Source: a virus (taxonomy: Duplodnaviria > Caudoviricetes). Taken from it: DNA of 33,682 nucleotides. The stretch is taken from the IMG/VR virus record IMGVR_UViG_3300032305_000417, positions 1 to 33,682 of that record, one strand, 5' to 3'. Positions 529 through 30,248 of this stretch are shown here, piece after piece. The stretch's first letter is position 1; every line of letters begins with the position of its first letter. The position numbers and the translations under genes were made by a program. Below the pieces are notes generated by a model that saw only the letters and a list, made by a program, of their open reading frames with translations, did not search any database and was not told where the DNA came from.

Positions 529-551
529 GCGCCTATATGATAGGAGCAATC

Positions 552-1046
552 ATGGAAAGAACAGACAGCCATTTCACAAAAGAACATTTGCAATCCTTGT
601 TTTTCTATAAAGATGGGCAATTGTATTGGAAACAAACAAAAGGCAGACGCATTGCTAACACCCTTGCTGGCGCAAGATCGCATCATTACTGGCAAATCTG
701 CATAGATTACGTTATTTATCGAACGCACAGACTTGTGTGGATTTACCATCATGGTTATTCGCCCGATGTAATTGACCACATTAACGGCGATACATTTGAC
801 AACAGGATTGAAAATTTACGTGAATGTAGCCAATCTCAAAATCAACACAACAGAACAATTAGCAAAAACAACTCATCTGGCGTTAAAGGCGTTGGTTGGT
901 CTAAGCAAAAAAATAAATGGCGAGCGCGACTTATTGTGGATGGAAAACAACAACACCTTGGATTTTTTGATAATTTGCAAGATGCCAAAGAAGTTATACG
1001 CGCAAAACGCATAGAGCTTCATGGCATCTTTGCAAGAAACAATTAA
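552..1046 (+). CDS. HNH homing endonuclease with C-terminal AP2-like DNA-binding domain
   Basis: HRLVW...IDHINGDTFDNRIENLR (HNH_3); SGVKGVGW...KWRARL...HLGFF (AP2); AGGAG before ATG 552. Confidence 0.92.
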   Translation: MERTDSHFTKEHLQSLFFYKDGQLYWKQTKGRRIANTLAGARSHHYWQICIDYVIYRTHRLVWIYHHGYSPDVIDHINGDTFDNRIENLRECSQSQNQHNRTISKNNSSGVKGVGWSKQKNKWRARLIVDGKQQHLGFFDNLQDAKEVIRAKRIELHGIFARNN

Positions 1047-25383: not shown

Positions 25384-25597
25384 ACGACACCTTTGGCGGT
25401 CTGCCCTTACGCTTTGGCGGCTCAGATACAACTGGCAACGCAAGCATATCTAATACAGGTTCTCCGTATTCCAAAGCCAAAAATTCACCGCAACGCTCGT
25501 TGGGTGATCTGTTTTGGTACTGCGGATAACGCCTACAAGTACCTACGCTGTGGCCACTATCAACAAAGTGATCGCAGCCTCTACATGATTTATCCAT
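25373..25597 (-). CDS. Four-Cys metal-binding small protein
   Basis: CRGCDHF...CRRYP...CGEF, basic tail KRKGRPPK. Confidence 0.65.
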   Translation of the reverse strand: MDKSCRGCDHFVDSGHSVGTCRRYPQYQNRSPNERCGEFLALEYGEPVLDMLALPVVSEPPKRKGRPPKVSYDH

Positions 25598-26087
25598 GAT
25601 TTGCATATTCCCCATGATGTTCAGTTCTGAAAGCAACAGCAGCATTTTTTGCCACTTCTAAATCATCAAATCTACCAACAAATGTTTTTTTATTATCAAC
25701 ATACACTTGGACTTCCCATTTGTTTCGAGCTTTTGCCCATGAAACATTTTTTACGCCAGATGTGTTTTTGTTTGACAAACCTTTGTTTAAAAGGTTTTGA
25801 GAACGAGTTGCAGGTCGCAAATTCTCAATTTTGTTGTTTTGCTTATTACCATCAATGTGATCAATTTCAACTGGCAAATAACTATGATGAAACAAGAAAA
25901 TAATACGATGCGCCCGATACATTCGGTTGTTAATCGTAATTCTCCAATAACCACGGTCACCCAATTGACCAGCCTTTTGACCAATTTTTACATGGGGTCT
26001 AGCTATTTTCCAAAATAGGAAACCATCACGATACTCAAACAGTTCGTGAAGTAAATCTTTTGACAAGCTAAAATCTATCTCAGCCAT
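25590..26087 (-). CDS. HNH homing endonuclease with AP2-like domain
   Basis: AHRIIF..IDHIDGNKQNNKIENLR; SGVKNVSW..KWEVQV..VGRF; AAGGAG RBS. Confidence 0.92.
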   Translation of the reverse strand: MAEIDFSLSKDLLHELFEYRDGFLFWKIARPHVKIGQKAGQLGDRGYWRITINNRMYRAHRIIFLFHHSYLPVEIDHIDGNKQNNKIENLRPATRSQNLLNKGLSNKNTSGVKNVSWAKARNKWEVQVYVDNKKTFVGRFDDLEVAKNAAVAFRTEHHGEYANHG

Positions 26088-28159: not shown

Positions 28160-28283
28160 CTCCCTCACATTCTCCAAAGTCCAAGTCACCTGTTAGTTCC
28201 AAAGCCTTGTTAATCGTGTCTATATTATAAGACACATTATCACGCACTTGGTCAAGTATTTTTACTGCTTCGTAGTAGTTCAT
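28080..28283 (-). CDS. Hypothetical protein
   Basis: MNYYEAVKILD..INKALELTGDL; ATGA-coupled to replication gene. Confidence 0.6.
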   Translation of the reverse strand: MNYYEAVKILDQVRDNVSYNIDTINKALELTGDLDFGECEGDANPASNKYGSQAWLDSLCQGKVRGT

Positions 28284-29077
28284 ACTTGCGCCCCTTTACG
28301 CAACTCTGCCAATTTAGCCAGCACTTCCAAAGAAGGCGGCACAGCATTTTTTCTGTGTTCTTCAATCTTCCGCAATGCAGCGTCTTGATTTGGTGGTGTC
28401 GGTGTAGTGATATGCGCGACATCAAACTTGTTGGCAAAACTCTTAGGCGCTGATTGACTGCGTATCCAGTTACGCCATGTTGCTTGCCAATCCAATTTAA
28501 CTCCACCAGTACCAGCTTTGGCAATCCAAAAGTCTTTAAAACTGTCAGCCACCGAATTGATGTTTAGGTCAGATCGTTCTTGTTCTGCCCATTCTTTCCA
28601 ATCATCTGGCAAAGACCAATCGGTAGGCAAGCGCGACCCGCGCTGCGTCTTTACCTTTGGTTCTTGGTTAATGGTTATTGGTTTATGGTTATTGGTTGGT
28701 TGAACGTCTGTTGAACGTAAATCTAACGACCGTTCAACGCCCGTTGGATTCTTGTTTAACGCTCGTTTAGCTGCCGATGCTTTTCCAGCTTTAGAAGCTG
28801 TATCAAGCTGCTGGTGGTAATGCTTAATTTCTTTGTCGCAACGTGTGTGATGCCATTGGTTGTCTTTTAATGTAAAAAACATATCAAGAATTCCAAGCAA
28901 TTTGTCTTGTTCTTCACGCGCATTGACCTTCATGGAAAGTTCAAACATTGAGTTTGGCAATGCTTGCTCTGTATCGTAATAAAGCCACAAAAGTTTTAAA
29001 TAAATGCCGACTTCTTCGTTTGTCAAGAACGAAGTGTCCTTGATGAAGTCACCAATATGATGCTGGTAGTAGTGCAT
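28280..29077 (-). CDS. Replication initiator, DUF1376/YdaU family (lambda O position)
   Basis: MHYYQHHIGDF..DTSFL..GIYLKLLWLYY N-domain; RLPTDW..FKDFW..KLDWQATWRNW C-domain. Confidence 0.85.
   Translation of the reverse strand: MHYYQHHIGDFIKDTSFLTNEEVGIYLKLLWLYYDTEQALPNSMFELSMKVNAREEQDKLLGILDMFFTLKDNQWHHTRCDKEIKHYHQQLDTASKAGKASAAKRALNKNPTGVERSLDLRSTDVQPTNNHKPITINQEPKVKTQRGSRLPTDWSLPDDWKEWAEQERSDLNINSVADSFKDFWIAKAGTGGVKLDWQATWRNWIRSQSAPKSFANKFDVAHITTPTPPNQDAALRKIEEHRKNAVPPSLEVLAKLAELRKGAQV
28661..28750. repeat. Putative replication origin (iteron-like repeats inside initiator gene)
   Basis: Tandem TGGTTAA/TGGTTAT/TGGTTTA/TGGTTAT heptamers, GTTGAACG twice and inverted CGTTCAAC. Confidence 0.55.
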
Positions 29078-29106
29078 ATAGCCCGCTTTTTAAAGCCCCT
29101 TTGAAA

Positions 29107-29172
29107 GAAACTGCGGCAGGAGAAGGGGTAACTCTTTTCAATCGGGTAATTAGTCCGACCTAGCCGTGTTTC
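29107..29172 (+). ncRNA. Three-way-junction structured RNA, c4-antisense-RNA-like
   Basis: P1 GAAAC.GCGGC.AGG / CCT.GCCGT.GTTTC; P2 AGAAGGG-GTAA-CTCTTTT (GNRA loop); P3 TCGGG-TAATTAG-TCCGA; four G-U pairs on plus strand. Confidence 0.6.
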
Positions 29173-29185
29173 AAAACATTATAAC

Positions 29186-29473
29186 TTAGGAATCGTCATC
29201 TTCAAACGCTTCAGAACTTTTCTCGCCTTCTTCATAAGCAATGTTTAGGCAATCAGCAAAGTTCACATCCAATGTTGCACAGATGCTAATCAGCGAAATG
29301 CCAATCCAGCCAACCATCTTGGCCATCTTGTCTGGGCTTTCTTGATCGTTGAACCAGGCTAACGATTCCATATATTCTTGGATAGCCTCCAGATCAAAGT
29401 CTATGCTTCCGTCAAAACCGCGAGTTGCCTCGACCTGACGGATAATTTTCATTTCTGTTTCAGCGTAACTCAT
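29186..29473 (-). CDS. Degenerate MazG-like (NTP pyrophosphohydrolase fold) protein
   Basis: MSYAETEMKIIR start and VG.IGISLISICATLDVNFADCLNIAYEE end resemble phage MazG-like proteins. Confidence 0.5.
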   Translation of the reverse strand: MSYAETEMKIIRQVEATRGFDGSIDFDLEAIQEYMESLAWFNDQESPDKMAKMVGWIGISLISICATLDVNFADCLNIAYEEGEKSSEAFEDDDS

Positions 29474-29627
29474 CTTTAAACCAATCTGGTCGTAAGACCT
29501 TTAGTTGCCATACACGGGCCTTTGGCACTACGTCTTTCCACGCAGACACCGCTGGCTGACTGATACCTAACAGTTTAGCAAGCTCAACCTGTGAGCCTGC
29601 AAGTTTGATTGCTTGTGTTTTTTCCAT
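29460..29627 (-). CDS. cro: Cro-like HTH repressor (55 aa, not in ORF track)
   Basis: AIKLAGSQVELAKLLGISQPAVSAWKDVVPKARVWQLKVLRPDWF; first gene of divergent arm. Confidence 0.85.
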   Translation of the reverse strand: MEKTQAIKLAGSQVELAKLLGISQPAVSAWKDVVPKARVWQLKVLRPDWFKDELR

Positions 29628-29699
29628 GCGTGAAATATAACATAACTTTCGTTAAGTTGTAGATAAACAACATTAGGGTTTGTCACTACAAAATAATTG

Positions 29700-29727
29700 T
29701 TGACGTATGCTTAATCTAGGTTATAGT
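29700..29727 (+). promoter_or_regulatory. Early rightward sigma70 promoter
   Basis: TTGACG-16 nt-TATAGT followed by leader with AGGAG RBS. Confidence 0.65.
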
Positions 29728-29773
29728 TCAGTCATCCCGTAGCAATTAGCAGGCGGTACTTAGGAGAAACAAA

Positions 29774-29971
29774 ATGATAGTAGTTTCAACAACACCCATT
29801 GGCCCGAAAAAAGACAGAGCTTATTGGCTTATACAGCAAAGCCCAGAGCAAACAAAAATTTTTAAAGTACAAGGCGTTGGAAAAAGTTTTATGCTGTTTG
29901 ATGGTGAGCAACACTTAGTAAGTTTTCCAACTTTAACAAAATGCACAGATTACGTTAAAAACGCAACTTAA
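29774..29971 (+). CDS. Early hypothetical protein
   Basis: 65 aa, TAGGAG RBS. Confidence 0.7.
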   Translation: MIVVSTTPIGPKKDRAYWLIQQSPEQTKIFKVQGVGKSFMLFDGEQHLVSFPTLTKCTDYVKNAT

Positions 29972-29975
29972 ACTG

Positions 29976-29984
29976 TGTTATACT
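29976..29984 (+). promoter_or_regulatory. Extended -10 promoter (second copy of early leader)
   Basis: TG-T-TATACT followed by repeat of the first leader. Confidence 0.55.
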
Positions 29985-30029
29985 TCACTCATCCCGTAGC
30001 GCAATGCAAGCGGTAACTTAGGAAACAAT

Positions 30030-30248
30030 ATGAAAGATGCTTACCTCAAACCAGAACACTTTGACCATGTGTTCTACACCTACATCACCTTCTACGGCTC
30101 ACAAAAAAAAGTCACTTGTGCTTTTGATGAGCCTGATGATGTCCACGTTTGGTTGTACGACAACGACTACAACATCACATACGACACCACACGCGAAGAC
30201 AGCCAACGCATTGAATTATTCGCCCACGAAATTTTGGAGCAAGTATGA
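30030..30248 (+). CDS. Early acidic hypothetical protein
   Basis: 72 aa, TAGGA RBS. Confidence 0.7.
   Translation: MKDAYLKPEHFDHVFYTYITFYGSQKKVTCAFDEPDDVHVWLYDNDYNITYDTTREDSQRIELFAHEILEQV

What the first reader, a model, noticed from the sequence alone, without database searches (positions are those of the whole stretch)
29081..29172. c4-like three-way-junction RNA antisense to the replication initiator leader, with adjacent complementary sites
Seen: three stems with four G-U pairs and a GUAA (GNRA) tetraloop on the plus strand; on the coding minus strand these become A-C mismatches. Just 5' lie GCCCG (29081-85) and CCCCTT (29096-101), complementary to CGGGT and AAGGGG in the two hairpin arms and overlapping the initiator translation-initiation region. 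Known: P1/P7 c4 and P4 CI RNAs are junction-shaped RNAs with paired a/b target sites. Inference: an RNA switch or antisense RNA controls replication (or superinfection) in a phage with no CI protein.
Basis: partly seen in the sequence, partly recalled or inferred. Interest (0 to 1): 0.7.

Follow-up and report, generated by a model that had tools for sequence, protein, structure and literature searches.

The report
Self-pairing leader RNA gating phage replication
The fold is conserved but most likely belongs to the gene's own strand, not the opposite one: it is a divergent form of a catalogued, untested phage RNA (int-alpA) predicted to head the message for the replication-start protein, in which one loop matches either a decoy or the ribosome-binding site and a second loop matches itself, so it likely throttles that protein when two copies of the message pair up.

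Summary
The plus-strand fold exists, but it is the mirror of a minus-strand (sense) RNA. That RNA is a three-way junction starting just behind a predicted promoter, ahead of the DUF1376 initiator gene; 69 of 76 readable relatives have it there. No c4/CI family matches. The closest is Rfam int-alpA (24.1 bits, cut-off 35.8; 15 of 31 homologs pass). Sense-strand evidence: P2 wobbles 43 G-U to 1 A-C, an upstream -10 box in 162 of 286 homologs, and the GNRA loop in only 9 of 252 antisense folds. The P3 loop co-varies with two downstream sites that compete for it: a proximal decoy and one at the ribosome-binding site. P2 loops are self-complementary (47 of 70 loop types against 18 expected) and have no partner in cis. 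Best reading: a translational switch, likely flipped by kissing-loop homodimerisation, so it would count its own transcripts. Dimer, sign and expression are untested. This scan noted int-alpA leaders before on other DNA (168 findings), including both features. My paper searches found no test of function.

The parts
29178..29205 (-). Predicted sigma-70 promoter (-35 TTGAAG 29205-29200, -10 TATAAT 29183-29178); puts the start at about 29172, the first base of P1
   Evidence: 10 of 12 consensus matches; TAnnnT 11-18 nt before the core in 162 of 286 homolog flanks vs 26 in a control window. Start site not mapped.
29107..29172 (-). int-alpA-type three-way junction. P1 29172-29163 / 29117-29107 with an internal loop; junction strands UA (29162-61), GAAAA (29139-35), CU (29119-18)
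   Evidence: Rfam RF02996 24.1 bits, E 0.021, below cut-off 35.8; pair counts; single strong hit of own model R1, on the minus strand
29140..29160 (-). P2 hairpin, 6 bp with two G-U pairs, 9-nt loop
   Evidence: 6 of 7 P2 column pairs change on both sides; G-U 43 vs A-C 1 in 140 unique P2 stems
29147..29152 (-). Self-complementary hexamer UAAUUA in the P2 loop; predicted kissing site for a second copy of the RNA
   Evidence: sequence; enrichment 47 of 70 vs 18.0 expected; set towards the 3' side of the loop in 40 of 47; no partner in cis
29120..29134 (-). P3 hairpin, 3 bp, loop UUACCCCUU (29131-29123), the switching loop
   Evidence: loop co-varies with two tail sites
29096..29101 (-). Site A (AAGGGG), proximal decoy complementary to the P3 loop; predicted pseudoknot
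   Evidence: -9.7 kcal/mol duplex; all 6 column pairs change on both sides; about 16 nt from the junction family-wide
29082..29088 (-). Site B (AAG-C-GGG, one bulged base), second complement of the same loop bases, ending 4 nt before the AUG in the ribosome-binding region
   Evidence: -5.9 kcal/mol duplex; family-wide co-variation, overlap with predicted Shine-Dalgarno in 231 of 265
28280..29077 (-). DUF1376 (YdaU-type) replication-initiator gene, 265 aa; the gene the leader would control
   Evidence: PF07120 E 4.8e-23; PHROG 'primosomal protein' E 2.5e-40; initiator role is by family annotation
29460..29627 (-). Cro-like regulator, 55 aa, upstream context
   Evidence: PF14549 P22_Cro E 3.9e-12
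29186..29473 (-). 95-aa ORF between cro and the leader; its 3' end overlaps the predicted promoter
   Evidence: weak PHROG MazG-like hit E 3.8e-4; function unknown

Best explanation
The element is a conserved int-alpA-type three-way junction predicted to form the 5' end of the initiator mRNA, and it likely works as a translational switch that counts its own copies: the P3 loop would hold the decoy site A in a lone transcript (ribosome site free), and kissing of two transcripts through their self-complementary P2 loops would move it to site B and block the ribosome site. Shown by comparison: the fold, the complementarity of the loop to both A and B, their competition for the same loop bases, the P2 palindromes and the lack of a cis partner. 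Inferred: sense-strand expression from the predicted promoter (about 0.9), control of translation by an A/B exchange (about 0.8), dimer formation as the trigger (about 0.6), and the negative sign (about 0.6 given a dimer). The effect would be dose compensation: initiator output levels off as genomes and transcripts multiply.
For: Strand: P2 G-U 43 vs A-C 1 (23 vs 3 on a stricter count); -10 box upstream in 162 of 286 vs 26; antisense -10 at most 4% at any position, n=273; Rfam models the same strand. Two sites, n=276: own loop against site A -6.83 vs foreign -3.12 kcal/mol, site B -7.11 vs -4.51; two sites in 258, and 248 of these share 3 or more loop bases. This holds for 81 loops without anti-Shine-Dalgarno words (-6.49 vs -3.77) and with one row per downstream-protein cluster (top decile: A 54 of 88, B 42 of 92). 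A comes first and is the stronger in 161 of 235. Palindromes: 47 of 70 unique P2 loops vs 18.0+-3.3 shuffled (max 28 of 1000); hexamers 15 vs 1.9; P3 loops as control 16 of 148 vs 19.6. Fifteen different 4-mers occur; the commonest exception is GACG, 25 of 236, the two-pair kissing loop of Moloney viruses (PMC7357161, passage). No cis partner from -30 to +240 nt and no tandem junctions. Downstream genes are dose-sensitive kinds: of 98 representatives 13 initiators/primases, 17 nucleases, 6 Rha/Ant-type regulators, 2 integrases, 2 ParB/methylase, 5 other, 53 no hit.
Against: No transcript, start site, dimer or regulation was observed. Minimum-energy folds are lower on the antisense strand in most homologs (sense lower in 47 of 252); the gap falls from 2.85 to 0.53 kcal/mol when the invariant junction bases are kept single-stranded but does not vanish. 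Wobble asymmetry favours the sense strand only in P2: P3 20:17, P1 8:8, sites A and B even; pseudoknot A 36:22; P1 outer positions lean A-C 18:7 and P3 position 5 A-C 13:1. 35 of 236 P2 loops have neither a 4-mer palindrome nor GACG. B is on average weaker than A (-7.1 vs -8.4), so a move to B needs a structural push that I cannot show. The window's own minus-strand fold is not unusually stable (z -1.0). Loop types are related by descent and recombination, so unique loops are not fully independent.
Confidence: 0.4

Rival explanations
1. Same sense-strand two-site switch, but the trigger is a small molecule, ion or protein bound at the invariant junction (an orphan riboswitch or protein site), or folding kinetics alone; the palindromic loop would then serve stability or a non-regulatory dimer.
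For: Junction words are nearly invariant across hosts of many phyla; junction plus pseudoknot plus ribosome-site occlusion is riboswitch anatomy (PMC5737381, passage). 35 of 236 loops lack an obvious self-match.
Against: It does not explain why 15 different palindromes are kept, off-centre in the loop, while the P3 loop shows none. The downstream genes share no pathway. The fixed words were part of my search patterns, so their invariance is partly built in.
Confidence: 0.28
2. Dimer-triggered switch of the opposite sign: a lone transcript folds its loop onto site B (off), and in a kissing dimer each loop takes the partner's stronger site A, freeing both ribosome sites. That would be a threshold that turns the initiator on only at high transcript number or multiple infection.
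For: A is the stronger site in 161 of 235, which suits the final state. A lies about 16 nt from the junction whatever the P1 length, leaving a median 5-nt linker in long-P1 members such as this one, a tight reach in cis.
Against: Short-P1 members have 10-nt linkers and could reach A in cis. The internal loop in P1 could hinge. A is transcribed before B. The junction's helix stacking is not known.
Confidence: 0.22
3. The junction is cut out or released as a small RNA and acts in trans on site B of other transcripts, in the way P1 c4 and P4 CI RNAs do (processed RNAs of the same strand as their targets; mechanism recalled).
For: Rfam types int-alpA as 'Gene; sRNA'. A U-rich run follows P1. One loop with two targets in its own transcript resembles CI. 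C4 and CI are RNase P substrates (PMC5499578, passage).
Against: No c4-family hit. Site A sits at a fixed distance from the junction, as a cis contact would. No terminator-like site was called there.
Confidence: 0.07
4. One reading: a plus-strand antisense RNA with a GNRA-capped hairpin represses the initiator.
For: The plus strand folds better in this genome (z -3.0 vs -1.0) and in most homologs.
Against: P2 wobbles 43:1 for the sense strand and no antisense -10 enrichment; GNRA in 9 of 252; no plus-strand promoter-like site upstream; the extra plus-strand pairs use invariant bases.
Confidence: 0.03

Closest known systems
int-alpA RNA motif, Rfam RF02996 (typed 'Gene; sRNA'; by my recollection from the Weinberg et al. 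2017 survey, PMC5737381, whose main text does not name it and whose supplement I could not read)
   Same: Same strand relative to the gene, same three-way junction with UA / GAAAA / CU strands, U-rich run and purine-rich 3' end; model matched over all 71 positions. 12 of 20 pattern homologs and 3 of 11 DUF1376-leader homologs pass the cut-off.
   Different: The window scores 24.1 against 35.8. P2 is longer (6-7 bp with an 8-10 nt loop) and P1 has an outer helix. The Rfam structure line shows no pseudoknot, ends at site A and lacks site B. The gene is a DUF1376 initiator.
DNAVirus_187 candidate RNA (Fremin et al. 2023, PMC10690425, supplement rows)
   Same: Listed within 25 bp upstream of DUF1376 genes 54 times; 122 sequences, mostly freshwater. 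It may be this leader or part of it.
   Different: 49 nt, shorter than this junction. Its sequence and structure files could not be read, so identity is untested. No mechanism in the passages I saw.
P1/P7 c4 and P4 CI RNAs (Rfam C4, c4-2, c4-a1b1)
   Same: Branched phage RNA whose single-stranded part matches two sites in its own operon (recalled).
   Different: No model hit; a different junction; no sign of processing; a self-complementary loop is not a c4 feature to my recollection.
IncI/IncB plasmid repZ leader pseudoknot with Inc antisense RNA
   Same: A leader loop pairs with a site near the initiator's start and acts as the switch for initiator translation (titles in the reference list of PMC10724649).
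   Different: There a separate antisense RNA counts copies; here no antisense promoter is evident and the loop has two competing sites.
Retroviral kissing loops (Moloney GACG tetraloops; HIV-1 DIS) and the ARRPOF plasmid RNA dimer
   Same: Self-complementary loops that join two copies of one RNA. GACG is the commonest non-palindromic P2 loop here (PMC7357161). ARRPOF is a replication-linked bacterial RNA that dimerises (PMC12990946, passages). The short-3'/longer-5' flank recalls DIS (recalled).
   Different: Those dimers serve packaging or are of unknown use; in the passages I read none is a leader that switches a ribosome-binding site.

Membership tests
int-alpA RF02996 | Score at or above the gathering cut-off of 35.8 bits | tested here: not met
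   24.1 bits, E 0.021; no gathering-level hit in the window. Filed as a divergent variant, not a formal member.
int-alpA RF02996 | Three-way junction with CUAG / GAAAAG / CCUG words on the strand of the downstream gene | tested here: met
   (29163-29117, minus); alignment; pair counts
int-alpA RF02996 | Continuity with members above the cut-off | tested here: met
   3 of 11 leaders of DUF1376 relatives pass (L061 42.8, L003 36.7, L062 36.0), 10 of 11 hit at E<=1; 12 of 20 hand-picked pattern loci pass
int-alpA RF02996 | Position between an integrase and an alpA gene (read from the name; recalled) | tested here: not met
   cro, 95-aa ORF, leader, DUF1376; no integrase in the genome
c4 / c4-2 / c4-a1b1 / P4 CI | Match to the Rfam covariance models | tested here: not met
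   no hit at gathering level or at E<=10
c4 / c4-2 / c4-a1b1 / P4 CI | Two separate RNA segments (a', b') pairing with paired a/b targets | tested here: not met
   only the P3 loop has partners; P2 has none in cis
c4 / c4-2 / c4-a1b1 / P4 CI | Release as a processed small RNA (RNase P) | not testable with these tools
   only contigs of one RNA run were available
Antisense-controlled initiator leaders (repZ/Inc type) | A counter-transcript from its own promoter over the leader | tested here: not met
   no plus-strand promoter-like site upstream; no antisense TAnnnT enrichment in 273 homologs. Consensus scans only.
Kissing-loop homodimer RNAs | Self-complementary loop kept through sequence change | tested here: met
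   self-pair columns AU 21 / CG 21 / GC 20
Kissing-loop homodimer RNAs | Dimer observed | not testable with these tools
   needs native gels, mass photometry or cryo-EM
Ligand-binding riboswitch | Ligand-dependent change of structure | not testable with these tools
   needs in-line probing

The most novel reading that the evidence does not exclude
A 100-nt phage leader that senses its own concentration with no protein, ligand or antisense partner. Two transcripts kiss through a palindromic loop, which flips a second loop between a decoy and the ribosome-binding site of the replication initiator. The palindrome is a swappable identity code (at least 23 changes among 70 initiator genes), so each phage would count only genomes of its own code group.
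Probability: 0.45. Interest if true: 0.85.

Novelty: new variant of a known kind. Interest (0 to 1): 0.62.

Why it matters
If right, an abundant orphan RNA family (about 4,400 IMG/VR stretches estimated for one strict pattern, most but not all real) gets a mechanism: gene control by RNA homodimerisation. Recent reviews call the biological role of natural RNA multimers mostly unknown (PMC12990946, passage). It would also give phages a protein-free way to count genomes at the replication step. The built-in natural variants (15 palindromes, many loop/A/B sets) make both claims cheap to test. If only the two-site switch holds, it is still a useful revision of the int-alpA model: cis-acting, with two missing helices.

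Tried and rejected
Rfam at gathering level over the window: 0 hits. c4-type identity: rejected. GCCCG pairing with the P2 arm: no own-versus-foreign difference. GNRA hairpin: 9 of 252. Cis partner for the P2 loop: none in 14 windows, n=260. DNA-operator or quasi-palindrome-repair origin of the loop palindromes: unlikely, since they are off the hairpin axis in 43 of 47 and absent from P3 loops. Wobble counts at P1, P3, A and B did not tell the strand. Free-energy comparison of strands points the other way and is reported as counter-evidence. Expression: one RNA run held 6% of the words; its 5 contigs at depth 3-9 come from relatives, one overlaps the junction with a different P2, and contigs show neither strand nor level, so no evidence. 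Cultured phages: blastn of the leader against 50,697 records found nothing; two cultured phages with distant DUF1376 genes (P19250A, CV-1-33) lack the element. Genome-collection pattern hits were mostly chance (28 of 76 passed a stem filter). The window's own copy failed the Watson-Crick-only filter because its first two P2 pairs are G-U; it is included. Loci (selected for GACG) and 11 loops over 12 nt were left out of the palindrome test. Of 103 representative proteins 98 were scanned. Papers: ten searches gave two papers with 'int-alpA' (one lists it in 2 of 5 E. coli genomes untested, one means the gene order), none with 'RF02996' in the main text, and none on its function. The 2026 preprint on short RNA assemblies covers manA, EGFOA and a k-turn RNA (first of five parts read).

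Full report
Setting. The window is a complete 33.7-kb phage record with direct terminal repeats. It has P22-like head genes, ERF and YqaJ recombination genes, a 55-aa Cro-like gene and a 265-aa DUF1376 gene at 28280-29077 on the minus strand. No CI-type repressor or integrase was found among the 57 ORFs scanned. The flagged stretch lies between a 95-aa ORF and the DUF1376 start.

Observation. The minus strand also gives a three-way junction with two G-U pairs in P2. Rfam has no gathering-level hit in the window. The best sub-threshold hit is int-alpA (RF02996) on the minus strand, 24.1 bits against 35.8; no c4 family appears at E<=10. A promoter-like site on the minus strand (TTGAAG-16-TATAAT) would start transcription at about 29172, the first base of P1.

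Homologs. Of 80 DUF1376 relatives fetched (best of 513), 76 had enough upstream DNA; 69 carry the junction within 60 nt of the start, 6 carry it 277-999 nt further up, and 1 lacks it. A strict three-word pattern is estimated at about 4,400 stretches in IMG/VR; 101 of 115 viral but only 28 of 76 genome-collection cores passed a stem filter. After a Watson-Crick-only, strand-neutral filter, 312 instances remained. All 20 hand-picked loci hit int-alpA and 12 pass the cut-off; of 11 DUF1376 leaders, 3 pass and 10 hit. On a 70-row alignment 89.4% of cells pair and 20 of 28 pairs change on both sides, above all shuffles and slid controls. Downstream genes: of 98 representatives 13 are initiators, helicase loaders or primases, 17 nucleases, 6 Rha/Ant-type regulators, 2 integrases, 2 ParB or methylase, 5 other and 53 unassigned. 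In the unbiased viral sample 44 of 84 fall in the initiator cluster.

Strand. For the sense strand: 43 G-U to 1 A-C in 140 unique P2 stems; TAnnnT 11-18 nt upstream in 162 of 286 versus 26 in a control window; no antisense -10 enrichment in 273; no plus-strand promoter-like site upstream in this genome; GNRA in 9 of 252 antisense folds. Against: antisense folds are lower in energy in most members (sense lower in 47 of 252). Most of that comes from invariant junction bases pairing (2.85 to 0.53 kcal/mol when forced open). P1, P3 and the two tail sites do not discriminate, and a few loop-edge positions lean A-C. I put the sense strand at about 0.9. No strand-specific data were available.

Two competing sites. 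In 276 members the P3 loop pairs with its own tail far better than foreign loops do, both at a proximal site A (-6.83 vs -3.12 kcal/mol) and in the last 17 nt before the start, site B (-7.11 vs -4.51). Two sites were found in 258, and 248 use the same loop bases; median ends are 19 and 7 nt before the start codon. The signal at B is not just Shine-Dalgarno likeness: it persists for 81 loops without anti-SD words and with one row per protein cluster. B overlaps the predicted SD in 231 of 265. The loop has no partner beyond 40 nt. A lies about 16 nt from the junction regardless of P1 length and is the stronger site in 161 of 235. Here A is AAGGGG (29101-29096, -9.7) and B is AAG-C-GGG (29088-29082, -5.9).

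Self-complementary P2 loop. The window's loop holds UAAUUA. Of 70 unique loops up to 12 nt, 47 hold a palindrome of 4 or more (shuffled 18.0, max 28 of 1000) and 15 of 6 or more (1.9, max 7); P3 loops show none of this. Fifteen different 4-mers occur; by instance 176 of 236 are palindromic, 25 are GACG and 35 are neither. GACG is the two-pair kissing loop of Moloney viruses (PMC7357161, passage). Palindromes sit towards the 3' side in 40 of 47, which argues against a DNA operator and recalls HIV-1 DIS (recalled). No cis partner exists from -30 to +240 nt and no locus had two junctions, so the only match is another copy. On a tree of 70 initiators the palindrome type changes at least 23 times (minimum 5, shuffled 38.6); the two nearest relatives keep this P3 loop but have UCAUGA. 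Whole P2 hairpins seem to be exchanged, so these are not all independent origins.

Mechanism. Shown: fold, two exclusive partners for P3, self-matching P2. Inferred: the leader starts at its own promoter; A, made first and stronger, holds the loop and leaves the ribosome site open; kissing of two leaders moves the loop to B and shuts translation. That would cap initiator supply as genomes multiply, as IS10 multicopy inhibition does for a transposase (recalled), and suits the nuclease and antirepressor genes too. I give this 0.40. Rivals: ligand, protein or kinetic trigger 0.28; dimer turns translation on 0.22; processed c4-like RNA 0.07; plus-strand antisense 0.03.

What is known. The RNA is a divergent, long-P2 form of int-alpA; it fails the formal cut-off but is linked to members that pass. 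It is not c4 or CI. It works like the repZ leader in switching an initiator through a loop-to-leader pairing (reference titles only), without an evident antisense RNA. Ten paper searches found no functional study. I saw passages of PMC5737381 (supplement unreadable), PMC7357161, PMC12990946, PMC5499578, PMC12370729, PMC13612085 and PMC10690425, and the first fifth of bioRxiv 10.64898/2026.07.01.735769. The supplement of PMC10690425 lists RF02996 eight times among recovered structures and a 49-nt candidate, DNAVirus_187, upstream of DUF1376 genes 54 times; its sequence was not readable and it may be this leader. The unread supplements could already note the pseudoknot or palindromes. This scan has 168 earlier notes on int-alpA leaders in at least 135 genomes, mostly before nuclease genes, with the two-site pairing and, in one, the self-pairing loop. 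I recorded my reading before seeing them, and they are not independent support.

Verdict. New variant of a known orphan family, with a testable and unusual mechanism. Interest 0.62.

Noticed in passing
window 29710-29758 and 29967-30015 (+): A 49-nt direct repeat (78% identical): each copy is a -10 box followed by a shared leader and a ribosome-binding site ahead of the small ORFs 29774-29971 and 30030-30248. It folds no better than shuffles, gives a weak freshwater-2 hit (E 4) and recurs in relative L010. Likely a duplicated early promoter-leader cassette.
   Followed up: partly
L013, L035, L036, L041, L059 (about 1 kb upstream of the DUF1376 match): The leader sits 955-999 nt upstream of the initiator with an extra gene between them; in L013 it is methyltransferase/ParB-like. 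Genes can thus slot in behind the leader and take over its ribosome site.
   Followed up: partly
L623 and L634, tail behind the junction: Sites A and B are exact 8-nt copies about 35 nt apart, against a usual 6-9 nt, ahead of a gut-type initiator gene. The A-B spacing is free while A's distance to the junction is fixed.
   Followed up: no
window 29626-29658 and 29960-29992: A 33-nt inverted pair (73%) covering the predicted cro promoter and the second plus-strand promoter; the divergent promoters may share a motif bound by the Cro-like protein.
   Followed up: no
window 537-1046 (+) and 25590-26087 (-): Two HNH endonuclease genes have no strong copy of this leader; model R1 finds only weak matches elsewhere (best E 0.078; 435-528 minus, E 0.96). 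In this genome the leader serves only the initiator.
   Followed up: partly
window 28658-28745: Short TGGTT-type direct repeats and an inverted pair inside the DUF1376 gene, where lambda-type initiators carry their origin (recalled); a candidate origin.
   Followed up: no
window 29186-29473 (-): A 95-aa ORF with a weak MazG-like hit (E 3.8e-4) lies between cro and the leader; many relatives run from cro straight into the leader.
   Followed up: no
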